Shown here in pieces: positions 26,441-56,526 of a stretch of 64,000 nt of DNA. This DNA is from the human T2T-CHM13v2.0 reference genome, Homo sapiens. The stretch lies in assembly GCF_009914755.1 (NCBI RefSeq), contig NC_060934.1; one strand, written 5' to 3'. Each line of letters begins with the position of its first letter. Within the stretch, counting starts at the first letter, position 1. Position numbers and translations under genes: made by a program. The notes beneath the pieces were generated by a model. It had not been told where the DNA came from. It saw only the letters and a program-made list of their open reading frames with translations, and did no database searches.

Positions 26441-26452
26441 ATGGCCACCGAG
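26441..26452 (+). CDS. GOLGA7B: GOLGA7B coding exon 1 (MATE)
   Basis: ATG in strong Kozak context (atcATGG) at the 3' end of the CpG island, followed by donor GAG|gtaggg. Joins in frame (phase 0) to exon 2. Confidence 0.95.
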
Positions 26453-29400: not shown

Positions 29401-30037
29401 AGTGCTGGCATCAGCGGAACCTCCTAATTCTCGATGCCTCACATGCATCCTATGGAATGAGATGGTTTTTAATGAGGATGAAGATGGCGCCAGGGGGGCA
29501 CTCCTGTTGGACTTGGGCAGACTGGACCAGGAGCTCATTTGCACTCTAGAGCTTGTTCCTCTGCACCCCAGCTAGTTGACTGTCAGGTGAACAGGAGCCA
29601 AATGTGTGACCTGTGGTACCCACTCTCCAGGCAGACTCCCCCTCCTTCTCATACTGCAGTTTGAAAATTGGTACCCATGGGTCTCACCACTGATTTTCTT
29701 CCTTATGAAATGCTTCTCGGCCCTGTCTTCACTCTGCTGCCAGTGAGCCAGGGGTGGCAATGGGAGAGAGGGGCAGGGTTGAGGAAGGTGAGAAGTGGAG
29801 AGAGGCTCAGGTCTCTGGGTCAGTTAAGAACCCCCTGGGAGACACCCAGGGGAAACACAGAAACTGCAGCTTCAGAGAGAGTTGTGCACATATTTTGATA
29901 TCCTCTGGTAGGATTTCAGAGCATCACGGATCTCTGCTGAAAACCCCACCAGCTTTCTGAAAACTTAGTAGCTGGCCAGTGGCCTGGAGCCTGGCTTAGC
30001 TCTTGCCCAAGGGGCCCCAGCCATGGGATTCTTTATT

Positions 30038-30348
30038 TAGAGGTCTTAAACTAGCAGCTCTAGAAATGAGTCTGGTCCATGGGTGTGCCTTACTTAGTCT
30101 GTTGAGTGCTTATACATTTTAAAAATGTATTGGAAATATTCAAAAATCAGAATATTTGATGTTAAAAAGATCTAGATTTCTGGCTTCTTTTGAGACACCA
30201 GAAGTGCTGGCAACCTGGGTATACATTCCCACGTGGCAATAGTCATCTGTCTCCTTGAGATGGGGCACCAGTTTTCTAATTAGCCCCAGGCCCCACCTGG
30301 CCCACTTATTGCTCAGCCCCTGTAAACATTTGCATTCATAATCCCTGA
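30038..30348. mobile_element. MER102-like hAT element
   Basis: Motif tctagatttctggcttcttttga...ctggcaacctggg...cattcccacgtggcaa. Confidence 0.55.
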
Positions 30349-30879
30349 TAAAGCCTCTAGAATGTCAGAGATGAAAGGGGCTTGAGCAATGATGTAGTTC
30401 CAGTTTCTTAGTTTCCAGTTGAAGAAATGGAGGTGCAGAGAAGGGAAGACTTTCCCAGGGCCATGTGGCCCAGGGTCAGGTCTCCTGCCCCCAGGTCAGT
30501 GGGCCATCTTTCCACTAGGGCTTCCTGGCACTTCACACTCAAGCCACCATGAATGGAGAAAACCAGGAGACCCTGCCTTGCCTTAAATCCGGCTCTTCAC
30601 CAACTTCAGATGAGTCTGTAATATATGTACTCTATGTAGGTCTGGGAGACTAAGGCTCTGCCATATAAAATGTGTCTGATATCATCCTTTAGCAACTCCT
30701 CAGAGTTGCTCCTCCACAAACACTCTCCAGGGAGAGAAGCAGATCTCTGGTCACCCAGAGCCTGGATAGTAGTCTAAGGCTCAGGATATTGTTGGTGCTG
30801 AAAAGGGTGTTGACTTATCCTACTCTGGCTACTTGAGAACCTGTGGATCAAAGCCAAGAGGAAATGGGAATTTATTATG

Positions 30880-31270
30880 TAAGGTAGCACCCCCAAATCT
30901 TAATGTATTAATAGCTTAATACAATAGAAGTTTGTATCCTGCTCAGTGAAGTTCCAGGTAAGTGTTCCTGATCAACAGGTATTCCAGGCGGTGATTCAAG
31001 GCAGTGATTCAGTGATTCAGGGACCAAGGCTCTTCCCAACTTGTGGTGTCACTATCTTCAACACAGGGCTCCACCAGCCTCCATGAAAGGGGAAAGAGCA
31101 GGGAGAAATGGTACATCTTTATGAATCAAGCCTACACATGGCATTCGTCACTTCCTCTCACATTCTACTCAGTCATAGGGACACACCTAACTGCAAGGGA
31201 GGCTGGGAATTAATATAGCTGTATGCCTAGGAGGAAGAAGAAATGGCTTGGGTCAGTAGCTAGCCAGTCG
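30880..31270 (-). mobile_element. Old MLT1-type MaLR LTR in GOLGA7B intron 1
   Basis: Motifs gcttaatacaatagaagttt and acacctaactgcaagggaggctgggaa...aggaggaagaagaaatgg (antisense MLT1). Confidence 0.7.
31017..31078 (-). CDS. CRTAC1: Candidate third CRTAC1 last exon (GWWSPVLKIVTPQVGKSLGP*) in an MLT1 LTR
   Basis: Polypyrimidine tract catttctccctgctctttcccctttcatggag|, phase-1 compatible with the EGF exon, TGA, and minus-strand AATAAA at 30876-30871. Confidence 0.45.
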
Positions 31271-31332
31271 CTAGAGACACACGCCTTCAGGACAGCACAC
31301 AAATATGTGTGTACACATGTGTGCATTCAGGC

Positions 31333-31559
31333 ACAGATTTAACACAATCCCTATCAAATTAGCAACATCGTTTTTCACAGTATTGGAAAAAACAATGCTA
31401 AAAAAAGAAAAAACAATGCTAAAGTTCACATGGAACCAAAAGAGAACCTGAATAGCCAAAGCAATCCTATGCAAAGAACAAATCCAGAGGCATCACATTG
31501 CCTGACGTCAAATTATACTACAAGGCTATAGTAACCAAAACAGCAGGTTTTGTATGGGT
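31333..31559 (+). mobile_element. L1 ORF2 fragment, local copy of 33695-33924
   Basis: Near-identical to 33695-33924, including the private motif cagcaggttttgtatgggt. Confidence 0.85.
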
Positions 31560-32199
31560 CAGAGGACAGGAAGCTGAGTCCATATCAGAATGGTTTCTTC
31601 CCTTTCTTTCCATTCTCACCACTGCTTTTCTCACCACCTCTTTAGTTTTTTCCATGGACTATTAGAAAGAGAATCATCCCTCCAACTGGCCCCTCACCCC
31701 AGTCTTGTCCACTTCCCACAAAACTGCTAGAATGAGCCTTCTAGGGGTAGGGGAGTCCATCCTCAAGATTGACTGACTTTCATAAGTTGGTTTTAGAGGG
31801 GCAGAGGAAGGCCATAGCCTTGTTCTTTACTCTTGAAAATACAACATTATAAAACCTTAACCAGAGCAGACATGTTAACAATTAACTTATTTATATTACC
31901 AAAGCATTCCTTATTTCTCCGAGTTATCATAGGTTCCTAGTAGATATCAAGGGGATTTCCTCAATGAAAACCTTGATTAGAGGAATCAACTCATATAAGC
32001 CTACAGGAGGGCTTATACATTATTTAATCCAGTCACAATACTTTGAGATCACATTTCGTACATACAGCAAGGTCCACCTGGATTTAGGAAAGTCACATAT
32101 AGTGTTTTTGGATTCCCACCTTTTCAGGACCTTGATCTACCAATTATCTGCTCCTTCTACTTTATTGATAACCTTTCCTAGTTATTTATTATTTCCCAA

Positions 32200-33498
32200 G
32201 ATTTTTGTTTGTTTTTAAATTTTATTTTATTTTAGATTCAGGGAGTACATGTGCATGTTTGTTACATGGGTATATTGCATATTGGTGGAGATTGGGCTTC
32301 TAGTGTACCCATCACCCAAGTAGTGAACATTGTACCCGATGGGTAATTTTTTAACCCTCACCCCCTCCCCTCTTTTGGAATCCCCAGTGTCTATTATTTT
32401 CATCTTCATATCCATGTGTACCTCTTGTTTAGCTTAGATTTATAAGTGAGAAAGTGTGTTTTGTGGTATTTGGTTTTCTGTTTCTAAGTTAGTTCACTAA
32501 GGATAATGGCCTCCAGCTCCACTCATGTTGCTGCAAAAGATATGACTTTATTATTTTGTATGGCTGTGTAGTATTCCATGGTGTATATATACCACATTTT
32601 CTTTATCCAGTCAAGTGTTGATGGTTGTTACTCTGAAGTTGGTTCTATGACTTTGCTATTGTGAATAGTGCTATGATGAACATATGAGTACAGGTGTCTT
32701 TTTAACATAATGATTTATTTTCCTTTGGGAGGATACCCTGTAGTGGGATTGCTGGGTTGAATGGTAGTTCTCTTTTTAGTTATTTAAGAAATCTTCATAC
32801 TGTTTTCCATAGAGGTTGAACTAATTTACATTTCCACCCACAGAGTATAAGTGTTCCCTGTTCTCTGCATCTATGCCAGCATCTGTTGTTTTTTTAATAA
32901 TAGCTATTCTGATTGGTGTAGCATGATGTCTCACTGTGGTTTTAATTTGCATTTCTCTGATGCTTATTGATGTTGATCATTTTTCATGCGTTTATTGGCA
33001 GCATGTATTTCTTCTTTTCAGAAATGTCTGTTCATGTCCTTTGCCCAGTTTTTAATGGGGTTGTTTTTTTTCTTGTTGAATTGTTTGAGTTCCTCATAGA
33101 TTCTGGATATTAGTCTTCTGTCAAAGGCATAATTTGCAAATATTTTCTCCCTTTCTGTAGGTTGTCTGTATACTTTGTTGATTATTTCTTTTGCTGTGCA
33201 GAACTTTTTAGTTTAATTAAGTCCCATTTGTCTATTTTTGTTTTTGTTCCATTTGCTTTTGGGGACTTCATCATAAATTATTTGCCTAGGCCAATATCCA
33301 GAAGAGTTTTTCCTAGGTTTTCGTCTAGAATTTTTACAGTTTCATGTCTTAAATTTCAGTCTTTAATCCATGTTGAATTAATTTTTGTATATGGTGAGAA
33401 CTAGGGGTCCAGTTTATTCTTTTGCACATGGTCAGCCAGTTTTCCCAGCACCATTCATTGAATAGGGAGTCCTTTCCCCATCCCATTTACAATAGCCA

Positions 33499-33543
<45 letters not shown>

Positions 33544-34020
33544 TTAACCAAGGAAATGAAAGATCTCTATGAGGAGAACTACAAAACACTGATGAAAGAA
33601 ATCGTAGATAACACAGACAAATGGAAAGACATCCCATGCTAAAGGATTGGAAGAATCAACATCATTAAAATGACCATGCGGCCCAAAGCAATCTACAGAT
33701 TTAACACAATCCCTATCAAATTAGCAATATCATTTTTCACAGAATTAGAAAAAACAATGCTAAAGTTTATATGGAACCAAAAGAGAACCTGAATAGCCAA
33801 AGCAATCCTATGCAAAGAACAATCCTATGCAAAGAACAATCCTATGCAAAGAACAAATTACATTGCCTGACGTTAAATTATACTACGAGGCTATAATAAC
33901 CAAAACAGCAGGTTTTGTATGGGTTACTGGTACAAAAATAGACACATAGACCAATGGAACAGAACACAGAACCCAGAAATAAAGCAACATACCTATAACC
34001 AACTGATCTTTAACACAGTC
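32200..34020 (-). mobile_element. Older L1 (L1PA/L1PB) with 5' inversion
   Basis: 3'UTR and ORF2 end on the - strand (32200-33480), joined to an ORF2 segment on the + strand (33481-34020) that contains a (CA)n at 33499-33542. Confidence 0.85.
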
Positions 34021-35199
34021 TTTCCCCGGTGTTTAAGCAAGTTTAAGTATCTGTCATCCTAAATCCTCCCCTTCAGCAGGAATCTTTCCTGCTTCTTGTG
34101 ATCTGACCCTTGCCTCCTCTACAATCTCATCTCCCACTGTTTCTTATCTAATCTGCAAACCACCTCCATTCTTGCTGAAATCTGCCTCTAGTAGACCATG
34201 TGCTCTATCTTTGTCACTTTGCGCAAGCTTCTCTTTTTGCCTGGGTTGCCTTTTCCTCCCTCTCCACACTCTCTGCCTGCCCCCTGCTACTGGTAACCCC
34301 TGGACTTCCTTTATGACTCAACACAGGCTTCAGGAGGCCTTTTCTGAGTGAGCATTTCTGGGTAAGATGTTACTTCTCTGTGGCATTTGTCACTGTCTAA
34401 TTCATTATATATTTACTTGTCTTCCTCCCTGGAGCTCACAGACTCTTTTGCTCAGCACCCCCAGAGCTTGGCACTAGGAGAGACTCAATAAATGAGAGCT
34501 GAGTGACTGAATGGATCCAGCTTAATTACATGGGATGAACTGGCTGTTGTTCACTCTGCCTTTGGGGCTTGGTCTCCACGTGTTCTCAGTGTTGGGCATA
34601 TTTCAACCAGTGGGATGCTTGTCTTGAATGTGGGTGACTGAGGCTGGAGAGGTGGAAAAAGTGGGCTTGTTCTGTGGAATTGAGCCCATTCCCCTCAAAC
34701 ACTAGAGTCTGTGTCAATGTGAAGTCCACAGATGTGCACAAGGGACAGATATCTCCCCTCTCCTTCCTGCCAGGGAAGGCTATTTCTTCCATTTCTGGCC
34801 TCTGTCCATTTCATCTACACTATTCTCTGGAGAAGTTTGGACATTCATGGGCCCTTTGTTTCCTGTGGTGAGAAGTGCTGGATGTGAAAAGCATCTGGGG
34901 TGCTCTCTGGCCGGGGCCATAAAACTCGGCCTGGACCCCAGTCTCTGAGTTCAGGGGTACCTCAGGTATTCCTCTGTCCCACATGTTCCCTGCCTGCAAC
35001 TCTGTTGTGAGCTCCACTTGGCAGGACTGGAGCACTGGTCTTGTTCAGTGCTGGGTTCCCCAGGCACAGGGTCTCACAAGTGAACGCTTGGTACTTGGTG
35101 AATGAATGAAAGTATGAAAGGTTCTTCTGTGTGTGTGTGTGTGTGCACGTGCACGTGCGAGAGAGACTCAACTTTGGCCCTGCTTTAGGCTTGTTAAAA

Positions 35200-35355
35200 A
35201 TTTTTTTAGAGTTGGGGTCTTGCTCTGTCACCCAGGCTGGAGTGCAGTGGTGCAATCACAACTTACTGCAGCCTTTAACTCCTGGACTCCAGCAATGCTC
35301 CCACCTCAGCCTCCCAAAGTGCTGGGATTACAGGCACAAGCCACTGCACCCAGCC
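35200..35355 (-). mobile_element. Monomeric Alu (FLAM-like)
   Basis: Single antisense Alu arm. A similar + strand monomer lies at about 61352-61495. Confidence 0.75.
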
Positions 35356-35594
35356 TTGCTTTAGGCTTTTAAAAGATCTCTCTGGGATAGCTCAGGGCAG
35401 CTTCTTGGGTAGACCCCACAGCCCTGCCTCCCTTGGCCTCTTGGAGCACCTGTAGAGTGCCCAGCTTGTCTCTGCATGCTGGGAACTTTCCTGGTGTTAG
35501 TGCTGGAAGACCTGCATTCTGGGAAACCCCTGCATTTGGGATATGCCGAGATGGATGGTCACTCTCAGCACATGCCGCCCGCACGTCTCCTCAG

Positions 35595-35720
35595 GTCCAC
35601 AATCTGCAGGAGCTCCGGCGAAGTGCCTCACTGGCCACCAAGGTCTTTATCCAGAGAGACTACAGCGATGGGACCATCTGTCAGTTCCAGACCAAATTCC
35701 CCCCAGAGCTGGACAGCCGG
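35595..35720 (+). CDS. GOLGA7B: GOLGA7B coding exon 2 ([42 protein letters not shown])
   Basis: Acceptor tctcctcag|, donor CGG|gtaagg, 126 nt. Contains the KVFIQRDYS motif of the GOLGA7/GCP16 (Erf4) family of DHHC palmitoyltransferase cofactors. Confidence 0.97.
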
Positions 35721-36279
35721 GTAAGGATGCCTTTTTCTGCACTTGGAACCCAGGGCTGTGATGGAACTGAGGTTCTTATTGGAATGTATTTTATCCAGGA
35801 TCCTATGACACATAATATCATAGGACACGTAACATGTTTGGCCACTTCAAAAGGATGAATTTTAAAAAATCAAAAGGATGATTCTTAATATTGTCTTACT
35901 GTCTCCTCATAGAAAATTAGAGCTGAAGGGATCTCAGGGATTTTCTGGTCTGGCTGCTCTCAAGTTTCAGTTGCCTAAAAATGATATAGAGAGCTTGTTA
36001 AACAAATGGAAATTCCTGAGTCCTACTGGATGATACAGGTGTTGTCCAGCAGTGCTGATCCAGTTGTTGGACTGTGGCTCAGGAGTCTCCATTTATTAGC
36101 AGCTGTTCTCAACCTTGGCTGTACATTAGAGGTTCCTGGGGAGCTTAAAAAATCCTGATGCTCAGACTGCAGCCCAAACCAACTACATTAGACTCTCTAG
36201 GGGTGGGACTCTGGAATCAGCATAGTTTTAAATCTTAATTTTGAAATGAATTTTAATCATGATTGTTTAAACTTTAGTA

Positions 36280-36506
36280 TTTATTTATTTATAATTTTGT
36301 GGGTACCTAGCAGGGGTACATGAGATATTTTGATACAAGCATGCCATGTGTAATAATCACATCAGGGTAAATGGGGCATCCATTACTTCGGACATTTATC
36401 TTATCTGTTACAAACAATCCAGTTATACTCTTTTAGTTATTTTAAAATGTACAATTAAATTATTATTGACTATAGTCACCCTGTTGTGCTATCAAATACT
36501 AGGTCT
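36280..36506 (-). mobile_element. L1MA 3' end fragment
   Basis: ggggtacatgagatattttgatacaagcatg...atagtcaccctgttgtgctatcaaatactagg, typical L1MA 3'UTR. Confidence 0.75.
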
Positions 36507-36796
<290 letters not shown>

Positions 36797-38424
36797 TAGG
36801 TCTTAAGCCTTAATTTTTAATGAGGAATTCCCAGGTGAATCAGAATCAAGTGGTTCATAGATTACACTTGGAATTGCTAGTCTTGTTCAGCTGGTCTTCT
36901 TCAGAAACAGCGCTGCTTCTCATCCTTGGCTACACCTTAGAGGCACCTGGGAACTTTGAAAAAGGAAGCTTGCAGGGCGTCAGCTTGGGTAGGGCAGGGC
37001 AGTGGTGATCTTTGCTGCTCTGACCTATCCTCCCCCTTCCCAGACCATTGACTCAGAATCTCCTGGTGGGGGAGACTTGGGCATCATAGGGTTTAAAGGC
37101 TGCTCAGATAATTTCAGTTTGCAGCTGGAGCTGAGAACCATTAAGTCCTTGTTACTAAAACTGTGGCCTGTGGATCAACAATATCAACAATACCTGGGAG
37201 CTTGATAGAAATGCAGAATCTCAGCTCCCTCCCTGGATCTGCTGAATCCGAATCTGGGTTTTAATCTATTCCTTGGGTTATTCAGATATGCATGAAATTT
37301 TGAGAAGCTCCACACTAGTCCATCCCTCTCATTTAACAGAGGAAACTGAGGGCCAGAAAGAAGTGACTTATGGGAGTTAGTAAGTACCAGACAGGCTTAA
37401 GTGCCCCGCCTCTCTGCTTTTTCACAGGACTCTTATTTTCTTGCTGACACAATTGCATCTTTTGTGGGTACAGATCAAACTAAATGTCTTCATGATCACA
37501 GTCTCGCAGGGAAAGCTTAGAGACTCAAAGGAAGAGCTGCAGGCTGCTTTTCCCTTCTCCTTGCCTCAGGCAAAGGGGAGAGCCAGATGCACCATCCCAC
37601 AGTCTGCTGGGTGGCATAAAAGGCAGTCAGCCAAGGGCTCTGCCTACAGCCTCTGCCTCTAGACTCAGCTAGTTGGGTGACTCATGGACCTCAGGCTGCT
37701 GTGAGGCATCAGCTGCTGAGTTTTGCTTCTGGTCCAGGGGTGTCCTCAGCTTTCATCCTAGGCTGCCCTAGAGTGGGCCTGGGACTGGGGAAGCCAGAAG
37801 GCAGATCCTGAGCTTTCACTCAGCAGCCCAGGTAGATCTGAATGGGTTTGGGAAGTGGGGGCAGGGATGGTCTGTACTGATATGACCCGGAGCCAGCTTT
37901 CGGAGAGAATGTGGGCCTCTTTCTCATCTTAGCATGCTTGTCCTTTAGGGCGGGGTGACCCCCAGGGTGGAGCAGCAGGGCTTGTGGCATGGACTAGATG
38001 GGCAGGATTTTCATAGGATTTTCTCTATGAGTTCTCCCCAGGTCTGTGTAGGGGGAACTCCTAAGCTTCCAACTATTCTTGGACAGAGGTTTTGTCCTAG
38101 AGAGGCAGGGAGGTCCCTAAACTGTGTGATGAGCATTTCTGGTCCTGCTGCATGAGTGAGGAAGAAGGTACTGTGAAGAATGTGAAAAATAGGGCTACTA
38201 TTTTGACACTGTGACACCTGCTGAGTTTGGAATGTGACCTTCCCGGCTGTCTGGTGTTACACAGTGAAGAGCACAGACTGGAGTCAGAGCTGTAACCTTG
38301 GACAAGTTTACTTAGCAGTCACTAAGTATTTATTGATTATGTATTAGTCTCTAGAGATATAGGAGTAAACTCATGGCATTTATTTTCTATTAGATGGTGT
38401 AGAAAATAAAAAACCAAGCAAATA

Positions 38425-38863
38425 CAGTTGACCCTTGCACAACACAGGGTTAGGGGTGCCTGTCCCCTGCACAGTCAAAAATCTGGATATAACCTTTGAC
38501 TTTCTAAAAACTTAACTACTAGTAGCCTACTGTTGACTGGGAGTCTTCTGTTAATACAAACAGTTTATTAACACACATTTTGCATGTTATGTATATTATA
38601 TACTGTATTCTTATAATAAAGTAAGCTAGAGAAAAGAAAATGTTAAGAAAATCATAAGGAGAAGAAAATATATTTACTACTCATTAAGTGGAAGTGGATC
38701 ATCATAAAGGTCTTCATCCTCGTCATCTTCATGTTGGGTAGGCTGAGGAAGAGGAGGAACAGGACAGGTGGATCTTGCTGTCTCAGGGGTGGCAGAGTCA
38801 GAAGAAAATTCACATATACATGGACCCACACAGTTCAGACCCATGTTGTTCCAGGGTCAACTG
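38425..38863 (-). mobile_element. Tigger2a DNA transposon (TcMar)
   Basis: Terminal inverted repeats CAGTTGACCCTTG...CAGGGTCAACTG flanked by TA on both sides, about 440 bp. Confidence 0.88.
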
Positions 38864-40066
38864 TAAATATACCTCACTCAGGAGGTAACAAATACTAGAA
38901 GAATAAGGGGAGGATGTCACGGGGGTTGGGTGTGCTGGGGAGAGGTGAATGATCCTGGGCACAGGGGGAGGCTGTTGAATAAGGTGAGACCCAAGGGTGT
39001 TAAGGGTGTCACGGCAGCCTGCAGGGGAAAGTGTGGCAGCTAAGGAGATGGACACAAAGGGCCTGAGGAAATTTCAAGAAGCAGGGGTACTGAGTGAAGA
39101 GGAGAGGAGGAGACGGGCCCAGGGGTAGCAGGGTCGGGCCATGGAGGGCCTAGCGGGCATTGTAAGGACTTCTTGGATTTAACTTGCAGAGAGATGGGAA
39201 GATTGTGGGAGCTCTTGATCACAGCTGTGACATAATCTGACTTTAACTGGAAGTTAGGGCAGGAGCAGGGGCAGGGAGGCCAGTGAAGGGGCCAGAGACG
39301 GTGGCAGCTGGAACCACAGAGCAGTTCGTGGTCCGCGTGGTCTTAGGACCACAGAGCAGTCCTCACCTGTAAAATGGGGATGGCAGTAGTACTTTTCTGA
39401 TAGAATTGTTCTGAGAGTTAAATGAAAGAGTGCATTTCCTGGCACACAGAAAGTGCTTAATACATATTAGCCATTCCTATTATGGATACGGGCAGGACAG
39501 CTTCTCAGGTGTCCAAACACACAGGGTGGTGGTGTTGTGGGTGACCTCTGAGCTAGAAGGAAATGCCCCTTCCTGGAGAGATGCCCCTGAGGTCTCACTG
39601 AAGCAGTCTCATGCAGTCCCATCCAAACATGGAGAGCCCCTATGAATCTAGTCCTGAGCTCTCTCACAACCAGCAAGATGGGACGTGTCAAAGTCACTAG
39701 AATACTCGTTTGATCTTCTGCAGAAAACATCTAGGATATCATGGGAATTTCCTGTTTCCAAGGGAGGACAAGCAGCCATTCTTATTCCCATTTTATAGAT
39801 GAGGAAACTGAAGCCTAGATGGTTAAGCTGCTAGTTCAATGTCACTCAGCCAGTTAGTTGATGGCCAAGTCTGGACTGGCCCCCCCAGTCTCCTGACTCC
39901 CAGGCCAGTGCTCTTTCGGCTCTGCCTGCAGCCTCTTTGGTCTTGCCTGTGTGCCAATGTCATCTTCCCCATCTACATGGCCCCACCATTGTCACTTCCA
40001 GCCCTACCTGTGACTGTGCACACTCCAGGGAGGCTAACCGCAGCCTGGCTCTGTCCCTTTCTCCAG

Positions 40067-40219
40067 ATCGAGCGGCAGCTCTTTGAAGAGACTGTGAAGA
40101 CCCTCAACGGATTTTACGCAGAGGCTGAGAAGATTGGGGGCAGCTCCTACCTCGAGGGCTGCCTGGCCTGCGCCACGGCCTACTTCATCTTCCTCTGCAT
40201 GGAGACCCACTATGAGAAG
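40067..40219 (+). CDS. GOLGA7B: GOLGA7B coding exon 3 ([51 protein letters not shown])
   Basis: Acceptor ccctttctccag|, donor AAG|gtggcc, 153 nt. The EGCLAC motif (C78/C81) corresponds to the palmitoylated cysteines of GCP16. Confidence 0.97.
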
Positions 40220-40304
40220 GTGGCCCCTCCCGCCCCACCGTGCATCCCTTCCCTCAGGGCTGCCCTGTGGCATGCTCATCCTTGTCTGGCTCCTCTTTTT
40301 GCAG

Positions 40305-40406
40305 GTTCTCAAGAAGATTTCCCGCTACATCCAGGAGCAGAATGAGAAGATCTTTGCACCTCGAGGCCTCCTACTTACAGACCCTGTGGAGCGTGGGATG
40401 AGGGTT
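40305..40406 (+). CDS. GOLGA7B: GOLGA7B coding exon 4 ([34 protein letters not shown])
   Basis: Acceptor ctttttgcag|, 102 nt, followed by the U12-type donor |GTATCCTT. Confidence 0.96.
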
Positions 40407-41169
40407 GTATCCTTCTGGGCTATTCTGTGTTGAGGGCACAGGACTGCTAACCAGTAGAGATCCTGGTGAGGCTGCCAGGAAACGAGGCCACCTTAGGGGC
40501 CTCCACTCAGGTTTTCCCAGGATTCCCCACATCAGTGGTCCTCAGCCCTCCTCCACCACCCTAAGTTATTGGAGGCTTTGTGAGTTTCAGGATTTGCACT
40601 TGTTGGGCTGCATGTAATCAGTGCTTAGAATATGCCAGCTATCATGTGAAGTGCTTTGAAAATACGAATTCATGTACTTCTCATAACAATCTTACCAGGT
40701 GGGTTGCTCTGATTATTCCCAGCAACCTGCTTAGAGTCGTGCAGCTGGTGAATGTGGGAGCCAGGAATTGCACCCAGGCTCACCCTTAACTACAAAGACC
40801 CCTCCAGGAATATGCAAATCACCACATTCATTTACAGGTCCACAGTCTCATGCAATCCTCATGGAATCTCCCGTGGCAGGTCGCATTGTCCTCCTTTCAC
40901 AGATGAGAGACATGAGGTCTAGAATGATGTGACTACCCCAAGGTCTCAGTCCTGGTGAGAGGCTGGACGGGGGTGGGGCGTGGTTCTGCTGACTTTATCT
41001 CCACTTGGAATAGTGTGATCTGGGTGTGCACAAATCCCTCCCCCCGGGCAGCAGCAACACGAGTAGAATTGCTAAAAAATAAGGTTTACTGGAAAACTGA
41101 GGAGAAACAGAGTCAAAAAACCACAAACACCCAGAATCACGTGTTGACAAAGCCCAGTGAGAGGCACTT

Positions 41170-41366
41170 GTTTTTATTGAGCCTTTACTATGTGCCAGGT
41201 TTTGTGCCAAGTGTCTTACATACATTTAATCTAATCTCCACACTAACCCCAAGATTCTATTCTTAATCCCCATTTTGCAGATGCGATAATGGATGGCTAA
41301 CAAGTTAAGTGACTGGTGTAAGGTCACATAGCTTTGTGAGTTCCTGAATCAGGATTTGAACTCAGG
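41170..41366 (-). mobile_element. MIR SINE in the GOLGA7B U12 intron / CRTAC1-A 3'UTR
   Basis: tttattgagc..tactatgtgccagg...cccattttgcagatg...gttaagtgact..taaggtcacatagc...ggatttgaactcagg. Many further MIR and L2 fragments occur across the window and are not listed. Confidence 0.8.
41173..41178 (-). terminator. CRTAC1: PolyA signal of CRTAC1-A
   Basis: First minus-strand AATAAA after the exon-A stop (about 500 nt 3'UTR), located at the end of a MIR. Confidence 0.75.
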
Positions 41367-41684
41367 ACACTAAAGTCCTCATACTTCCTGTGCAGTGACA
41401 CCACCTCCCTGGGCACATCTGTGTCCTAAGATATGGTCATTAGACCCACTGGAATGTAAGCGCCATCAGGGCAGCGACCCTGTCTGCTGTGATCACAGCT
41501 ATGTGCCCAGCACAGGGCCTGGCCTTACGAGTCTCCCTAATTGTTAGCTAAGTAATGTGCATGGATGGGCTTGGGGAGGGTCTAGCTCCCAGGCCTTTAC
41601 ATCCCTACTGTCTAGGCAGCAGCACAAGCCCACTTTCCCACTCCCCTGCTGGACTCCATCCGCTGGTTCATGTCCCACCCCTGC

Positions 41685-41851
41685 TCAGCAGCTGGGCTCG
41701 CAGCTCTCCTTAACCACCGACCCCAGATTGAGATCTCCATCTACGAGGACCGGTGCAGCAGTGGCAGCTCCAGCAGCGGCAGCAGCAGCGGCAGTGGCAG
41801 CAGCAGCGGTGGGGGTGGTGGGGCGGGGGCCCGGTGACTGGCCGAGAGTCC
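41685..41851 (-). CDS. CRTAC1: CRTAC1 alternative last exon A ([55 protein letters not shown]), secreted cartilage isoform
   Basis: Acceptor ctccctacag|, phase-1 compatible, 55 aa then TGA. It is the 3' part of track ORF 41685..41984 and matches the CRTAC1 C-terminus as I recall it. Confidence 0.93.
41727..41837 (+). CDS. GOLGA7B: GOLGA7B coding exon 5 ([10 protein letters not shown] + Ser/Gly-rich tail, TGA)
   Basis: Acceptor ccccag| preceded by the U12 branch site TCCTTAAC. 36 codons plus TGA. Spliced total 4+42+51+34+36 = 167 aa. Confidence 0.95.
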
Positions 41852-42642
41852 CTGTAGGGAGGTGTATGGCCGGAGTGAGGGCCTTGCAGACCTGCGGCGG
41901 CTGCGCTACCAGAGCACCCGCTTCTGAGTCATTCTTTGGGCTCACCCTGCTGCCCGGGGTGGGAGGGAGGGTGACGGGCCTCATATTTCCTGTGGGCCAT
42001 CAACCTATGCCCCCTGTCCCTCACCCCCGTCTGGATCAGTCCATTTCCTGACCTGGGGGCTTTTCCTTCCCGATGGGGCTGGTCTGGGCCACACAGAGAC
42101 AGATCTTCCTAGGAAGGCTGGGGTGGGGAGAACACAACCTAGGCGGCCCCTCTCTTCCACAGCCCCTCTCCCAACCCTGCGAGGGGGGCCGAGGCCTACC
42201 ACATAGAGGACTCCCACACTGCATGACCCCTCATCCCAAACCCATATCCACCAGGACTCTTTCCCTTGGGCCCTGCGTCCCGTGGCTGTCTCCCAGTATC
42301 TGTTCCTTCTCATGCCCCTGCAGGGCCCCGGCCTGTCTATGATCCTGCCTCCACCAAATTCAAGGTGTGGGGAGACGGGTGCCGTGGTTGGGAGCTGTTC
42401 AGCGCACTCCTGACCTCTTCTAGACCTATGGCTTTCCTGTCCTGCATTCAGAGCTAGAGGCCAGCTCGGCCTTGCGAGAAGCATCCAACTTTGAGACTTT
42501 GCAGGCTGCCAGGTGCTGGTTGGGGGGCACAGAGCCTGGGGCTCTGGGAGGTAATATGGGGGTCTGGGAAACTCCGTGAAGAGACATAGCCATGCGGGGC
42601 CTGAATCTCCTGAACTACAGCCAGTTTCCTGAGATTAGAACC

Positions 42643-47696: not shown

Positions 47697-50600
47697 TGCC
47701 AGGAACATTCATGTACATTATTATTCCATTTAATTCTCGAACACTGGGGTGTTGAAATCTTATTTTACAGATGAGGAAACTGACGTTCTAGGTGGTTAGG
47801 TAGCTTGACAAGGGCTAGTAAGTGTCAGAGCAAAGACTTGAACCTAAGTCTCTGACTCCAGATCCCACTCTCACTCTGCCACAAGAGTGAGACGTGGGAG
47901 AAGAGAGAGTGTTCTACCTGGATTGACTCATAAAGATAGAAGACAGATTCCAGACCAGAGAGAAACTCGTGGGCAAATGCATCCCCAGAAAAATTAGCTT
48001 TGCAGGGGCATGAAGGTACTAGTTATTTTGGAGTAATTCAAGTTATCGATTTCTGTAATGGAAAAGTGATTGGGAACCAGCTATCACCTGAGAACAGTGC
48101 TGAGTGAGGCCCCAAGAAGGGGGCAATGTTACACACAAGCTTACACACAGCTTACAAGACCTCAGAGATTGCGAGGGTCCTTTTCCCTGCTGCCCACAAT
48201 TAATCAGTACACTTCTCAAGGGCAGGGAGCCTGTCTTACTCACTCCCCACCCCCACCCCCACCTCCCCCTATCCTGAGTGCTTGTTTCAGGGCCTGGCCC
48301 TGGCCAGGTGAATGGAAGATGCTGCCCATCTCAGGTTGGCAGGAAGAGGCAGGCCTATACAGATGTGTCATCTGCAGACCCCTAGGGCAAGGTGCCACTG
48401 AGAAGCAGCTCAGTACCATGCAGATAGGCAGTGGTCACTGAAGGATACAATTCACCTGCAAGTGGTCACCTTATAACTCAATTAAAGGATGGATGCAGTG
48501 ACCCCAGGCTACCCCCTGAGCTGGGCAGCAGCTCTCAGTGATGTTGCCCTAGCTGTGACATTGTGGCTCTGCTCATGACCTCTACCTATCCTGGGAGAGG
48601 AGGGGAGGAAGCGTGTGTCCCACCCCAGTCGGCCCTGCCTGACACTCCCCAAACACCATTTTGAGGTGGGGAAAATCCTTCTGGTGCTGAATTCTTTACC
48701 TGAGAGATCTGGACCTCAGGCCCTAGAGAGTGAATTACTGTGAGTGAATCACTGGCTGGATGGCTGGCTGGCTGGATAAGTGGATGGATACAGAGAAGAT
48801 GGGTATAGAGAGATGACTGATAGATCAGAGATGAGCGAGAGGCCTGCCTGGCTTGAGATGGATGCTCGCAGACCCTGGAGAGGCAGGTGAATGGATGGGT
48901 ACCGATCGCCCCTGGGCTCCCCAGTGCAGATCTAAATATAGGGCTGGAGCTCTTCAAAGGGAAGATGCCGTGCTATCCCAGTCCCCAGATGAACTCCGCA
49001 TTTGTAACTCTGAGTGATGGATGTGTCTTGTTGGGAAGAATCCTTATAGGTCTAATATTGCCCCAGCTAATGGCTTATGGATTGTTTTAAAGTCAGGCAT
49101 TGCTGGAAGTGAAACCAGGAGGTTAAACGTCCTGGCACAGATTTTATGACAATATCTGCATTTCATCAGTCAGGCACTGCAGCAAGTACCTTATAGGCTC
49201 GAGGAAGCCTCACAACAACTCTATGAGGATTTTATCACTGCCTCTATTTTGTGGATGAAGAAACTGAGGCTCAGAGATGAAATAACTTCTTAAGGCCACT
49301 TCCAAATGCCTGGGTGGAGGGTCTGGATTTCAAGTCCATTTGATCCCAGAGTTTCAGTGTGAAGGGAAAATTTTAAGGACAGTTGAAAGGAAGGGAGAGG
49401 GGAGGGCCATAGGATTTGTGCACAGCTCTAAGAACGAACATGGCATTTTGGCACATGTGAGACACCTTCTGCAGTGGGAGGAGGCACTGAGACTTTCCAA
49501 TGACTGGGTGACACGAGGGCAGCCCCAGGCTTCCTTCTCCCTCTTTCTTCTGTGTCAGCCTTCGAGGGCTCTAAACCTTGAGTCTGGGGATCTGAACTGC
49601 AGAGAGGGTGTATGTTTGGCTCACTTTCCTTCCTTTGGCCTAAACTTGTCCTTCTGCCATGGTCTCCATAAGCAGTTGGGGAAAGAGGATGTGCTTTTTT
49701 CCTGTTCCAGGAGCTCTACAGCCAGGTCTGGGGTGGAGGGAGGGAAGTTAGCCCTTAGATTTGTGGGGAGGGTGCATTAAATGACTCTAGGGGATGAGAT
49801 CCTTCCTGGCTGCTCTGGGGCTGGCCATGAAGAAGGAGAACCAGCTAGCTTTAGGGGAATTATTCTGGCCCCAGACTGCTTTCCTGCTGGCAGGCAGGCT
49901 GAGGGCATGAGGTTCTGGGCGGGACGTTCTGGGAACGGGTGATACAGATTCTCCATCTGCCGCACCCTTCTCCTGACCCTGCCTCCCTCCTCACAGCTGA
50001 ACAGGCTCCTCTCTGCACTCGGGACCCCCATTCAGATCTGTATTTAATCCCAGCTGAGTTCTAAGGACCAAGTATGGTTCTTCTGTTACTTGATGGGCAC
50101 GTATCCTGACTCAGTTTCCATGTCAGCAAAGTGGGAAGGATAAGCCCTGCCTCTCTTATTCCTGATCTTGTTCATACACTTGGGCTTCTGGAATACCTGG
50201 AGCTTTCTGGAGAAGGGTGCTGGGAGCAGCCTGGAGCTGAGCTCTTTTGAGGAGCAGCCGGCAACCCGGCAGGAAAAAGGACCAGACGGGGGTGCAGATG
50301 CCTTGGGAAAGTTGCAGCTCCTTTTTGGGCCTTGGTTTCCACGTCTGAAAAGGAGGGAAGAGGACTAGATGACTTCTCAGGTGTTCCTGGATTTAAAGCT
50401 CTAGGATTCTGTGATTGTTGAGGGCCAAATTCCCAGGCCAGTTCACTAGCTCCTGGTGACCTCTGCTCTGTATGGCCCAGTCCATGCCATGCCCGCCTAG
50501 CTCAGTTCACTTTGTTTTATGACTATTCTTTCTGGGAATGGCACTGCATGAGAATTCAGCAGAACATAGCACAGCCCAGGCCCCAGGAAGGTTGGCTCTG

Positions 50601-53765: not shown

Positions 53766-55816
53766 ATCTGTTGAACTCATGAATGAATCAAATGGAAGCC
53801 TTATCCTGGAGTCTGAGTGCTGCAGTGGTGCTCTTATCAGCTGTGGGAACTTAGAACTCCTCTTTGCAACTCACTGGACCCCACTCACCCAACAGGATCA
53901 CATGACACAGATATACCCTGTTATATAAAACTCATTGTGAAGGCATTCATGGTTATCACTTATAAGGCATCATCTGAAGTCTGCTGTCACCCTGAACCCC
54001 CTGATGTCCTTGGCAGGCCATCTCTGTAGTTGTCTTGTCCCTTATTTCTTGTGCTGTTGTGTATGGACAGTCAATGGGCTCTGTTATCTTGTCATTTACC
54101 ACTGCATTTGGAACCATTCCTCCATGGGTTTTGGGTTTTACTTATCTCACTATCTTAGATCCACTTTGTTCATTTTTTAAAAGGCAGCAGCTTCCAGAAG
54201 GACTAGGGAATAGTCTGAACAGTGACAGAGCTGCCTGTTACCCTCTGACAAGATGGTGTGGTGGGAAAGGGCTCCAGCCCTGGCCTGGGGAGCAGTGGGC
54301 TCCATGACCTTGGGCACAGTGACCTTGAACACTTCAGCTCTCTGAGCCTCATCTCTGGAGCCCTTTCAGATCTTTAGTTCTATGTCAATACACAGGAATG
54401 GGCTTTCTAGAAGTGGAATGATTTTTAAGTTGGTGTCTGCTTTTCAGGGAAATTGTAGCTGTTTTAATTTAAAAACTTTTCATTTATGCTTCTGTTCTAA
54501 GTGTAAAAACAGCACTAGCTACAAGGAATTCATATTTTGTGATTTATTAGGAGTATTACCATGATATCAGAAAATGGCAGGGGCTTTTTTTTTGTTGAAT
54601 ATGTTTTTAAAAGGGTTGCTGCATTCTTAAGTGTAATTTTATTATATCCTGGGATGACTTTTTTTCCCCATGAAGAATAGATCTATGTTTTATAACAAGC
54701 CTTCACTACTGAGGCTGGTCGTGAGCATATTCTGTGGCGTTACATCATTTCCAAAGAGTGTTCTGGCTACAGGAGCATTCTATTTTCCAAGGAGATTGCA
54801 GAGACCAAGTAGCAAGGTTCTTTCTAGAAATCAGAGTAACCTGAGATGAGCCAGGCCTATGTCCAGCCAGACATTGAGGAGTCTTAGAAAGGAAAGGCCC
54901 TTAGGGATATACCAGCCCAACTCTCTTGTCATCTACATTAGGGAAACTGAGGCACAGCATGGAGAAGTGACTTCCTGCAGGTAAAAGGCCTAGAGTACAC
55001 ACTCCATTTCTGCCCCTCACTCATCACACATCCTTCACTTGGCCCAAACCCTGGTCCCCCAAATGTGAACATTGTTGTACGCAACCAAACCACTGCTGGT
55101 GCCTGAGGGTGACACCTGCTTTGTGTTATGATCTGCTTTCAAAGCATCTCATGGTGGAAGGGCTGCTCCTAATTCAGCATTCCAATCAGTTCTACTTGCC
55201 CCAGACCCTTTTTATCATCAGTTTGGCACTAATATCTAGTAGAGAGTTTATTGGCATAATTTCTTCAGAAAAGAGGCTGGAAGGCTTAGCAAGTTCAAAT
55301 GATAACATTTTTATCAAGAGTCCCAAAGGACCACCCTTTTCCCTCCCATCACCACCACCAACACCAATAAGGCTTTCTCTAGCACAGGAAGTCAGGGGCA
55401 AAAAGCAGAAACAGCACAGGCCAAACCAGCAGGCACATGGTACATTATCGGATCAACCGGCAAGCAACCACCTGGGAGCCATCTTTGTTAAGGGCAAAAT
55501 AATGAGCTCACGAGACACTGGAGGATACAAGACTATCTTGATTCTTCTGAAGGAGTGAGGGAGACTGGATGGGGTATTGGAGACTTTCCTTTCTGTTTTC
55601 TCAGAAAACATGCAAAGAAAGTCTTCACAAACAACTAAGGTTGTGTCAGTATCGCCCAACCTTCCCTTTTCAAAGATGGCCACCCCTGTTGTCCATTCAG
55701 AGGGAGCACACAGCAGAACCTACTGGGCGTGGAGAGAGAGACAAGCAGCAGGAGAGAGATTTAGTTTTCCACAAAGGCTGTTAGTTTTGTTTTGTTTTTT
55801 CCTTTATTGATGGGAT

Positions 55817-55935
55817 TTAAAGTGCATATAACTGAAGGCAAAGTCCAAGGCCTAGAGAAAGATATGAGGCCCGAGAGAGAGGCTCAGAGATTCTAGAGGC
55901 GGCTGAAGAATACCCACCTAAAAAGGCCACTTGAG
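55817..55935 (-). CDS. CRTAC1: CRTAC1 alternative last exon B (AQVAFLGGYSSAASRISEPLSRASYLSLGLGLCLQLYAL*), brain isoform CRTAC1-B/LOTUS
   Basis: Acceptor gtttttgcag|, phase-1 compatible, 39 aa then TAA, hydrophobic C-terminus. AATAAA follows at 55808-55803. Too short for the ORF track. Confidence 0.92.
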
Positions 55936-56382: not shown

Positions 56383-56526
56383 CCACGCAGGCTGTGCCAT
56401 CCTCGTTGGGCTCGTAGCCCCGACTGCACTTCTTGTTGGTCCGGCACCTGTAGCTTCCATAGGTGTTGACACATACGGGCTTGTCTCGAGGGCACACGAA
56501 TGGGAACTGGATGCATTCATTGGTGT
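56383..56526 (-). CDS. CRTAC1: CRTAC1 calcium-binding EGF-like exon (DTNECIQFPFVCPRDKPVCVNTYGSYRCRTNKKCSRGYEPNEDGTACV)
   Basis: Acceptor ccttgcag|, donor GTGG|gtgagt, 144 nt, symmetric phase 1. cbEGF signature DxNEC...CxNTxGSYxC with six Cys. Confidence 0.97.

What the first reader, a model, noticed from the sequence alone, without database searches (positions are those of the whole stretch)
41685..41851. Dual-coding, codon-in-register antisense exon shared by GOLGA7B and CRTAC1-A, with a third layer of splice-signal constraint
Seen in sequence: the whole GOLGA7B last CDS (41727-41837, +) lies inside the CRTAC1-A last CDS (41685-41851, -), and the codons are in register. GOLGA7B AGC/GGC/AGT (Ser/Gly tail) read as GCT/GCC/ACT (Ala/Thr mucin-like tail) in CRTAC1. 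The GOLGA7B U12 branch point and acceptor are the antisense of CRTAC1 codons L-G-S-V-V-K-E. Established: exon sharing at this locus has been described. Inference: any indel in the (AGC)n/(GCT)n run changes both proteins at once, and synonymous CRTAC1 variants at V-K-E could break GOLGA7B minor splicing.
Basis: partly seen in the sequence, partly recalled or inferred. Interest (0 to 1): 0.8.

Follow-up and report, generated by a model that had tools for sequence, protein, structure and literature searches.

The report
GOLGA7B and CRTAC1-A shared antisense exon
The last coding exon of human GOLGA7B is read on the opposite strand, codon for codon, as the tail of the CRTAC1-A protein; this is real but already annotated and published, and CRTAC1 looks like the later user of an old, conserved GOLGA7B exon.

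Summary
GOLGA7B's last CDS (41727-41837, +) lies inside the CRTAC1-A last CDS (41685-41851, -). The codon triplets coincide. GOLGA7B intron 4 is a U12-type GT-AG intron, and its branch site and acceptor are the antisense of CRTAC1 codons L-G-S-V-V-K-E.

Little of this is new. The exons are RefSeq annotation. Terminal exons 15A and 15B trace to Steck 2007, and the minor intron is listed in the Olthof 2019 supplements. Only the combination was not found in the held library.

The implied selection on both frames is not supported. The GOLGA7B Ser/Gly tail is conserved across amniotes. In 21 CRTAC1-frame sequences, the changes in the non-repeat block fall at two sites that fit silent GOLGA7B third-position transitions. 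Thr content ranges from 0 to 8. The tail past the acceptor is read in three different frames across the conserved branch site. Mouse 3' RACE found only the B isoform. GOLGA7B third positions are no more conserved in the shared exon than in exons 2-4.

Best reading: CRTAC1 captured the antisense of GOLGA7B's last exon as a weak alternative terminal exon. The closest analogue is TRalpha2/Rev-erb-alpha. Interest is low to moderate.

The parts
41727..41837 (+). GOLGA7B last coding segment (36 codons plus TGA), phase 0; the doubly coding stretch
   Evidence: tail conserved across amniotes.
41685..41851 (-). CRTAC1-A (exon 15A) coding part: 2 nt of a split codon plus 54 codons plus TGA
   Evidence: A-type tails in other mammals.
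41137..41851 (-). Whole CRTAC1 terminal exon 15A; its 3'UTR lies inside GOLGA7B intron 4; AATAAA at 41173-41178
   Evidence: Hub annotation.
41852..41896 (-). CRTAC1-A 3' splice site region (AG at 41853-41852), lying in the GOLGA7B 3'UTR about 15 nt past its stop; weak pyrimidine tract (63% pyrimidine, 17.5% T over the last 40 nt)
40407..41726 (+). GOLGA7B intron 4, a U12-type GT-AG minor intron, 1320 nt
   Evidence: listed with the same length and the same 12-mers in the Olthof 2019 supplements.
40407..40414 (+). U12 donor GTATCCTT
   Evidence: read-through gene models begin V-S-F/S/L in 30 of 38.
41707..41714 (+). U12 branch site TCCTTAAC, ending 12 nt before the exon; antisense of CRTAC1 codons V-K-E
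41724..41726 (+). GOLGA7B intron 4 acceptor CAG; antisense of a CRTAC1 Leu codon (CTG)
41757..41833 (.). Interrupted (AGC/GGC/AGT)n run: Ser/Gly on + and Ala/Thr/Pro/Gly on -. Tandem Repeats Finder core 41773-41809, period 18 (also period 6)
55785..55935 (-). Alternative CRTAC1 terminal exon 15B (hydrophobic tail, own AATAAA, strong T-rich acceptor); the competitor of 15A
   Evidence: for isoform biology.

Best explanation
This is a convergent (tail-to-tail) gene overlap in which CRTAC1 uses the antisense strand of GOLGA7B's last exon as an alternative terminal exon (15A). Shown from the sequence: the 15A acceptor sits about 15 nt past the GOLGA7B stop. The frame then runs codon for codon back through the GOLGA7B Ser/Gly tail and the [10 protein letters not shown] block. 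It crosses the GOLGA7B U12 acceptor and branch site, stops 42 nt into that intron, and the transcript is polyadenylated about 0.55 kb further in. Inferred: GOLGA7B is the older, constraining frame, and the CRTAC1-A tail is a low-complexity Ala/Thr/Pro passenger whose residues are set by GOLGA7B codon choice. The register needs no special explanation. It is the most permissive antisense frame, because its stops would require the sense codons TTA, CTA or TCA. The U12 branch site is conserved for GOLGA7B splicing, not for CRTAC1, and small changes in branch-site-to-acceptor spacing put CRTAC1 into different frames in different mammals.
For: Anatomy. U12 status. The Olthof 2019 supplements list a 1320-nt GOLGA7B minor intron whose human 12-mers match the window exactly, a mouse ortholog and the paralog GOLGA7. 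Permissive frame: the in-register antisense of the whole human GOLGA7B CDS has 2 stops in 168 codons, against 8 and 6 in the other antisense frames. It is fully open in the two unnamed spliced cDNA-like sequences P0009 and P0021 as far as each ORF reaches. GOLGA7B frame old and constrained: 55 of 120 listed relatives carry the last exon. Of the 46 with tails of 38 aa or less, 36 share the first 17 residues with human, and these include marsupial, platypus, bird, alligator, turtle and snake models. CRTAC1 frame as passenger, over 21 rows: in [11 protein letters not shown] only V/I (15/6) and N/D (6/15) vary. Given the human codons, both fit GOLGA7B-silent TAC/TAT and ATT/ATC changes. Thr in the run ranges 0-8, and the Thr two residues before APVL is present in 14 rows and absent in 7. 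After DL[ND]L the reading is V-K-E in 6 rows, L-R-[RST] in 5 and R-then-end in 6. Of the other 4 rows, 1 is truncated, 2 are spliced and 1 is a bird without any of these patterns. No extra silent-site constraint: antisense-residue identity to human is 98/113 and 111/127 (87%) in unshared exons 2-4, against 8 of 10 comparable residues in the shared block. Weaker, probably younger splice site: the 15A acceptor tract is 63% pyrimidine and 17.5% T, against 78% and 42.5% for 15B. Mouse 3' RACE in brain and cartilage found only the B type (passages).
Against: The first 11 residues of the 15A tail ([11 protein letters not shown]) are 94% identical (114/121) across 11 unnamed sequences. That is higher than the virtual translation of the 25 codons upstream (80%, 219/275). 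This could reflect CRTAC1-A coding or splicing constraint, although these residues also cover the GOLGA7B stop and the start of its 3'UTR. Spacer length is nearly constant at 28-31 codons. A-type tails appear in gene models from primates, a deer, bats and a seal, so the isoform may be widespread in placental mammals. All comparisons are at protein level. The taxonomy and independence of the 13 unnamed sequences are unknown, and predicted models may have been built by homology to the human protein. Sample sizes for the silent-site control are small (2 sequences).
Confidence: 0.78

Rival explanations
1. True two-way dual coding: both proteins' tails are under purifying selection, so the exon evolves under three stacked constraints.
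For: Constant spacer length of 28-31 codons. [11 protein letters not shown] is 94% conserved. A-type tails occur in models from several mammalian orders. One bird model carries 21 tail residues identical to human. O-glycosylation of the human tail was reported by Steck 2007 (recalled abstract, not seen).
Against: The changes in the non-repeat block fall at two sites that fit GOLGA7B-silent changes that are missense in CRTAC1. Thr count ranges 0-8. The C-terminus is read in three frames. There is no excess conservation against exons 2-4. Mouse lacks the isoform by RACE. The GOLGA7B tail is equally conserved in birds and reptiles, where only 1 CRTAC1 model shows an A-type tail and a targeted search found no other.
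Confidence: 0.12
2. The overlap is mainly regulatory. Convergent GOLGA7B transcription or RNA pairing in neurons blocks use of exon 15A and pushes CRTAC1 to the brain isoform B, as proposed for Rev-erb-alpha and TRalpha2. This can coexist with the best explanation.
For: The architecture matches TRalpha2/Rev-erb-alpha. GOLGA7B is cortex-enriched: 16.7 against 1.05 or less in 7 other tissues. CRTAC1B is reported in brain and CRTAC1A in cartilage and lung. Inclusion of the A exon is 0.32 in normal brain against 0.73-0.84 in gliomas. The GOLGA7B 3' end (47715) lies between exons 15B and 15A, and the genes overlap by 6579 bp.
Against: No experiment exists. The tissue pattern is confounded by cell type. 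Mouse cartilage uses B although Golga7b is not expected to be high there. The weak 15A acceptor alone could explain B as the default.
Confidence: 0.15
3. The CRTAC1-A frame is an annotation artefact or an untranslated transcript end.
For: The tail is low-complexity. All three frames from the acceptor are open for at least 36 codons. Some non-human models may be homology-driven, such as the isolated bird model.
Against: It is the selected RefSeq transcript NM_018058.7 (hub annotation). Exon inclusion was quantified in TCGA data. Isoform A is reported as the secreted cartilage and lung form (citing Steck 2007). Recombinant human CRTAC1-A is in use.
Confidence: 0.03

Closest known systems
TRalpha2 (THRA) / Rev-erb-alpha (NR1D1) antisense 'bidirectional coding sequence' (Munroe et al. 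2015, PMC4569393; passages read)
   Same: The genes are convergent neighbours. An alternative last exon of one gene overlaps the last exon of the other, and both strands code. The acceptor of the alternative exon lies in the neighbour's 3'UTR just past its stop. The isoform is lineage-restricted while the neighbour's frame is old. The antisense virtual translation already resembles the tail in lineages that lack the isoform.
   Different: Here the constraining frame is a low-complexity Ser/Gly tail, not a folded ligand-binding domain. The overlap is 111 coding nt. The second frame also crosses a U12 branch site and acceptor. No regulatory test exists for this pair.
Published CRTAC1-A/CRTAC1-B description (Steck et al. 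2007, Matrix Biol 26:30, PMID 17074475)
   Same: This is the same locus and the same exons 15A and 15B. My recollection of the abstract is that it reports exon sharing with the tail-to-tail neighbour and O-glycosylation in the last exon of CRTAC1-A.
   Different: The paper is not held. I saw only citations of it. I cannot say whether it states the codon register or mentions the U12 signals.
Catalogued U12-type (minor) introns, Olthof et al. 2019 (PMC6717393, supplements searched)
   Same: GOLGA7B intron 4 is listed with length 1320 nt and with 12-mers identical to the window. Mouse Golga7b and the paralog GOLGA7 are listed as well.
   Different: The catalogue rows seen do not mention that the branch site lies inside an antisense coding sequence.
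Overprinted or dual-coding regions in general (recalled: dual coding is linked to intrinsic disorder, and the in-register antisense frame is the frame poorest in stops)
   Same: Both tails are low-complexity. The register is the stop-poor antisense frame. Variation is asymmetric between the old and the new frame.
   Different: Most textbook mammalian cases are same-strand alternative frames. This one is antisense and involves two separate genes.

Membership tests
U12-type (minor) GT-AG intron | 5' splice site /RTATCCTT | tested here: met
   GTATCCTT at 40407-40414, directly after exon 4.
U12-type (minor) GT-AG intron | Branch site TCCTTAAC close to the 3' splice site (about 10-15 nt, a recalled range) without a long pyrimidine tract | tested here: met
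   The only TCCTTAAC in the window is at 41707-41714. The second A is 13 nt from the last intron base, and the spacer is CACCGACCCCAG.
U12-type (minor) GT-AG intron | Conserved in orthologs and paralogs, and listed in a curated catalogue | tested here: met
   Human, mouse and GOLGA7 entries appear in the Olthof 2019 supplements. Thirty of 38 read-through models begin V-S-[FSL], as the donor would translate.
U12-type (minor) GT-AG intron | Removed by the minor spliceosome | not testable with these tools
   This needs U12/U6atac inhibition or minor-spliceosome knock-down data.
Antisense coding-coding gene overlap | Two annotated coding sequences on opposite strands share nucleotides, and both frames are open | tested here: met
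   111 nt are shared, and both translations are stop-free up to their annotated stops.
Antisense coding-coding gene overlap | Both products are made | not testable with these tools
   Literature only. CRTAC1A is reported as the secreted cartilage and lung form, and exon inclusion was measured. GOLGA7B was studied mainly as an expressed cDNA. No peptide data were seen.
Dual-coding region under selection in both frames | Lower silent-site change in the shared segment than in unshared exons of the same gene | tested here: not met
   87% identity (98/113 and 111/127) in exons 2-4 against 8 of 10 in the shared block. This rests on two sequences only and on protein-level proxies.
Dual-coding region under selection in both frames | The second frame's residues and its end are conserved across species | tested here: not met
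   Thr count 0-8, A/T flips, and three different frames after DL[ND]L. The exception is [11 protein letters not shown] at 94% identity.
TRalpha2/Rev-erb-alpha-type regulated antisense terminal exon | An alternative terminal exon overlaps the neighbour's last exon, and both code | tested here: met
   comparison passages.
TRalpha2/Rev-erb-alpha-type regulated antisense terminal exon | The neighbour's expression changes the isoform ratio | not tested
   Only a correlative tissue pattern is available.

The most novel reading that the evidence does not exclude
GOLGA7B transcription in neurons decides between CRTAC1-A and CRTAC1-B (LOTUS, the Nogo-receptor antagonist). It would do so by convergent transcription or by masking the weak 15A acceptor, as proposed for Rev-erb-alpha and TRalpha2. 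A smaller and more likely novelty concerns the C-terminus. In many mammals the CRTAC1-A stop appears to be the antisense TAA of the GOLGA7B U12 branch site, and one-base changes in branch-site-to-acceptor spacing switch the CRTAC1-A C-terminus between three frames. On this reading the Cys-containing 13-residue end seen in the window and in the two monkeys arose within or near the primates; the deer keeps the V-K-E reading but ends differently.
Probability: 0.15. Interest if true: 0.6.

Novelty: already known. Interest (0 to 1): 0.27.

Why it matters
Variant interpretation is the practical point. Every change in 41727-41837 must be scored for two genes, since only 2 of 333 possible substitutions are silent in both. 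Some changes that are silent in the selected CRTAC1 transcript (41709, 41712, 41724, 41726) touch the GOLGA7B minor-intron signals. For biology, the locus is a second example of the TRalpha2/Rev-erb-alpha layout. It links a brain-enriched palmitoylation cofactor to the choice between secreted CRTAC1-A and membrane-type CRTAC1-B. It also warns that conservation of an antisense frame can be a by-product of the sense gene, and that homology-based gene models can spread such a tail to species that may not express it.

Tried and rejected
- Steck 2007 is not held. What I say about its abstract is recalled.
- Four full-text searches returned nothing: CRTAC1 with 'exon sharing', GOLGA7B with 'minor intron', GOLGA7B with U12, and the old gene names or 'CRTAC1 antisense' (1 irrelevant hit). 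The claim that the combination is not in print rests on these searches of the held library only.
- The search for further bird or reptile A-type tails used residues 540-584 of the bird model. It found only the bird model itself and two primates.
- No vertebrate genomic DNA other than the window's own genome is reachable. No nucleotide-level dN/dS, indel spectrum or population variant density could therefore be computed.
- The idea that an open in-register frame is evidence of function was rejected. All three frames from the acceptor are open for at least 36 codons, and the in-register frame is nearly open across the whole gene.
- Enlarging the sample with the representative-protein search was considered and not run. 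Clustering at 50% identity would collapse these tails, and the library carries no names.
- bioRxiv supplements, and the PDF figures S1 and S2 of PMC4945026 (the mouse RACE data), were not seen.

Full report
**What is in the sequence**

The + strand 41727-41837 translates to [36 protein letters not shown]. The four upstream GOLGA7B coding segments sum to 393 nt. This exon therefore starts in phase 0, and the spliced CDS gives 167 residues.

On the - strand, the annotated CRTAC1 segment 41685-41851 is 167 nt. Its first two bases complete a codon begun in exon 56383-56526. From 41849 it reads [54 protein letters not shown].

Both codon sets fall on the same triplets (41727 and 41847 are both divisible by 3). 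The two frames are therefore in register: position 2 faces position 2, and position 1 faces position 3.

**The third layer**

GOLGA7B intron 4 (40407-41726, 1320 nt) begins with GTATCCTT. It carries TCCTTAAC at 41707-41714, ending 12 nt before the exon, and it ends in CAG with no real pyrimidine tract.

Each 8-mer occurs in the 64-kb window at chance frequency: 2 hits against 1.65 expected, and 1 hit against 2.08 expected. One sits exactly at donor +1, and the only copy of the other sits at the right distance from the acceptor. That placement is not chance.

The antisense codons are L (the acceptor), G, S, V, then V-K-E over the branch site.

**How much is chance, and how tight is the coupling**

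The register by itself is a 1 in 3 event. Entering from the 41851 acceptor, the other two minus-strand frames also stay open, for 36 and 46 codons.

Across the whole human GOLGA7B CDS, the in-register antisense frame has 2 stops in 168 codons, against 8 and 6 in the other two antisense frames. GOLGA7B uses one CTA codon, one TCA codon and no TTA codon. In two unnamed spliced cDNA-like sequences (P0009, P0021), that frame has no stop anywhere in the GOLGA7B coding part that each ORF covers. An open, in-register antisense frame is thus the expected by-product of codon usage here, not evidence of function.

The coupling itself is real. Of the 333 possible substitutions in 41727-41837:
- 2 are silent in both frames;
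- 148 are missense in both;
- 98 are missense only in GOLGA7B;
- 70 are missense only in CRTAC1;
- 15 touch a stop.

**What is already known**

- The hub annotation gives both coding sequences, and the A form is the selected CRTAC1 transcript.
- PMC4945026 (passages) describes human terminal exons 15A and 15B, with CRTAC1B in brain and CRTAC1A in cartilage and lung, citing Steck 2007.
- PMC10477339 (one passage) notes that the two genes overlap.
- Steck 2007 is not held. I recall that its abstract reports exon sharing with the tail-to-tail neighbour.
- A preprint quantified inclusion of the A-specific exon in TCGA data: median 0.32 in normal brain, 0.73 in low-grade glioma and 0.84 in glioblastoma.
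- The supplements of Olthof 2019 list a 1320-nt GOLGA7B minor intron with the 12-mers GTTGTATCCTTC and CTCTCCTTAACC, identical to the window. They also list mouse Golga7b and the paralog GOLGA7.
- Searches for GOLGA7B with 'minor intron' or U12, for CRTAC1 with 'exon sharing', and for the old gene names found no main-text discussion.
- Only the combination, a U12 branch site inside an antisense coding frame, appears undescribed in the held library.

**Which frame is the constrained one: GOLGA7B**

Among the 120 best relatives of GOLGA7B exon 3, 55 carry the last exon. Of those 55, 46 have tails of 26-38 residues. Of those 46, 43 share the first 10 residues with human, 36 share the first 17, and 33 share the first 21. 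They include marsupial, platypus, bird, alligator, turtle and snake models. The Ser/Gly tail therefore dates back at least to early amniotes.

**Which frame is the constrained one: CRTAC1**

A search with the CRTAC1-A tail returned 20 proteins:
- named models from two monkeys, a deer (flagged low quality), two bats, a seal and one bird;
- 13 unnamed sequences, of which 10 are open frames that run on upstream into sequence that is intron for CRTAC1, 2 (P0009, P0021) are antisense frames of spliced GOLGA7B cDNA-like contigs, and 1 (P0003) is a spliced CRTAC1 fragment identical to the window over the tail.

The comparison set is 21 rows, counting the window's own translation. Across these rows:
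- The spacer between LGQSP and APVL is 28-31 codons in the 19 rows where it could be measured.
- In [11 protein letters not shown] only two positions vary: V/I (15/6) and N/D (6/15). Given the human codons, both fit silent GOLGA7B changes (TAC/TAT and ATT/ATC).
- Thr in the run ranges from 0 (seal) to 8.
- The Thr two residues before APVL is present in 14 rows and absent in 7.

**The end of the CRTAC1-A tail is not conserved**

After DL[ND]L, the reading across the branch site differs between rows:

| Reading after DL[ND]L | Rows |
|---|---|
| V-K-E (window, two near-identical sequences, two monkeys, the deer) | 6 |
| L-R-[RST] | 5 |
| R, then the protein ends | 6 |
| Truncated | 1 |
| Spliced cDNA-like | 2 |
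| Bird, none of these patterns | 1 |

The three patterns are what the antisense of the branch site gives in its three frames (V-K-E, L-R, and a stop). I infer that the branch site is conserved everywhere, and that changes of one or two bases in its spacing to the acceptor shift the CRTAC1 frame. This rests on back-translation and was not checked on DNA.

**A control for extra constraint**

P0009 and P0021 give the in-register antisense translation of the unshared GOLGA7B exons as well. Their identity to human is 98/113 and 111/127 (87%) in exons 2-4. In the shared non-repeat block it is 8 of 10 comparable residues. The shared exon therefore shows no excess conservation of GOLGA7B third positions. 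The sample is small.

**Evidence that runs against the passenger reading**

[11 protein letters not shown], at the start of exon 15A, is 94% identical (114/121) over 11 unnamed sequences. The other segments are lower: 80% (219/275) for the 25 codons upstream, 71% (167/234) for the Ala/Thr run and 84% (102/121) for the block. Part of that stretch is not coding for GOLGA7B. It may therefore reflect use of the 15A splice site or coding in many mammals, or it may reflect a conserved start of the GOLGA7B 3'UTR.

**Age of the isoform**

Mouse 3' RACE from brain and articular cartilage found only the B type (the supporting figures are PDFs that I did not see).

The single bird model has 21 tail residues identical to human. 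A targeted search with its last 45 residues found no other bird or reptile CRTAC1 with such a tail. That model may have been built by homology to mammalian proteins. If the model is taken at face value, about 20 GOLGA7B codons are identical to human at silent positions in a lineage with no other sign of the A isoform. That points to constraint unrelated to CRTAC1.

The 15A acceptor tract is weak (63% pyrimidine, 17.5% T). The 15B acceptor tract is strong (78% pyrimidine, 42.5% T).

**How it most likely works**

CRTAC1 pre-mRNA that skips the proximal terminal exon 15B (55785-55935, which has its own AATAAA) splices 14.5 kb downstream to a weak acceptor in the GOLGA7B 3'UTR. It then reads the antisense of the GOLGA7B tail as a disordered Ala/Thr/Pro-rich end, stops inside the GOLGA7B minor intron, and is cleaved after the AATAAA at 41173-41178. 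These steps are shown by sequence and annotation.

The inferred part is that GOLGA7B is the older frame and CRTAC1-A a lineage-restricted capture.

The closest described case is TRalpha2/Rev-erb-alpha. It shares the alternative last exon, the acceptor just past the neighbour's stop, the bidirectional coding sequence, and an antisense virtual translation that predates the isoform. By analogy, GOLGA7B could bias CRTAC1 toward isoform B in brain. GOLGA7B is cortex-enriched, at 16.7 against 1.05 or less in seven other tissues. This is untested, and I give it about 15%.

**Verdict**

The feature is already annotated and published, and the minor intron is catalogued.

Noticed in passing
P0009 and P0021 (unnamed proteins), corresponding to window GOLGA7B exons 26441-41837 antisense: Two unnamed sequences are antisense open frames on spliced, intron-less GOLGA7B-like sequence. 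The in-register antisense frame is open over the GOLGA7B coding part that each ORF covers (P0021 almost to the start codon, P0009 into exon 2) and continues into the 3'UTR. In human the same frame has only 2 stops in 168 codons.
   Followed up: partly
P0022 (Charadrius vociferus CRTAC1 model), tail residues about 545-565: A bird CRTAC1 model ends in 21 residues identical to the human A-type tail. That implies about 20 GOLGA7B codons identical to human at silent positions. No other bird or reptile model with this tail was found. It is either a homology-driven model or a sign of strong silent-site constraint in GOLGA7B exon 5.
   Followed up: partly
Window 40407 onward (GOLGA7B exon 4 donor); proteins: Thirty of 38 GOLGA7B models without the normal last exon read straight through the U12 donor as V-S-[FSL]. 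Minor-intron retention models are therefore common in annotations of mammals, birds and reptiles.
   Followed up: no
P0120 (Trachemys scripta elegans): A turtle gene model named CRTAC1 is fused to GOLGA7B exon 3 sequence. It shows the two genes are neighbours in turtles, and that automatic models mix them.
   Followed up: no
P0123, P0124, P0126, P0140 (Bos, Moschus and Bubalus models) and P0087 (Octodon): Some ruminant GOLGA7B models leave the Ser run after CSSGSSSS for a different long tail, which suggests an internal donor in the repeat. One rodent model enters the last exon in a shifted frame, which suggests an alternative acceptor a few bases upstream.
   Followed up: no
Window 55785-55935 (-): CRTAC1 exon 15B encodes a 39-residue hydrophobic-ended tail (AQVAFLGG...LQLYAL*). 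It has AATAAA at 55808-55803 and a much stronger T-rich acceptor than exon 15A.
   Followed up: partly
Window 41838-41935 (GOLGA7B 3'UTR start, which is the CRTAC1 intron end): The virtual translation of the 25 codons upstream of the 15A acceptor is 80% identical across 11 unnamed sequences, and all but one align to the human reference without a length difference. The first ~100 nt of the GOLGA7B 3'UTR are therefore strongly conserved for reasons not established here.
   Followed up: partly
Window 48441-48448 (-): A second GTATCCTT lies on the minus strand inside the CRTAC1 last intron. It is at chance frequency and is not at any annotated exon edge.
   Followed up: no
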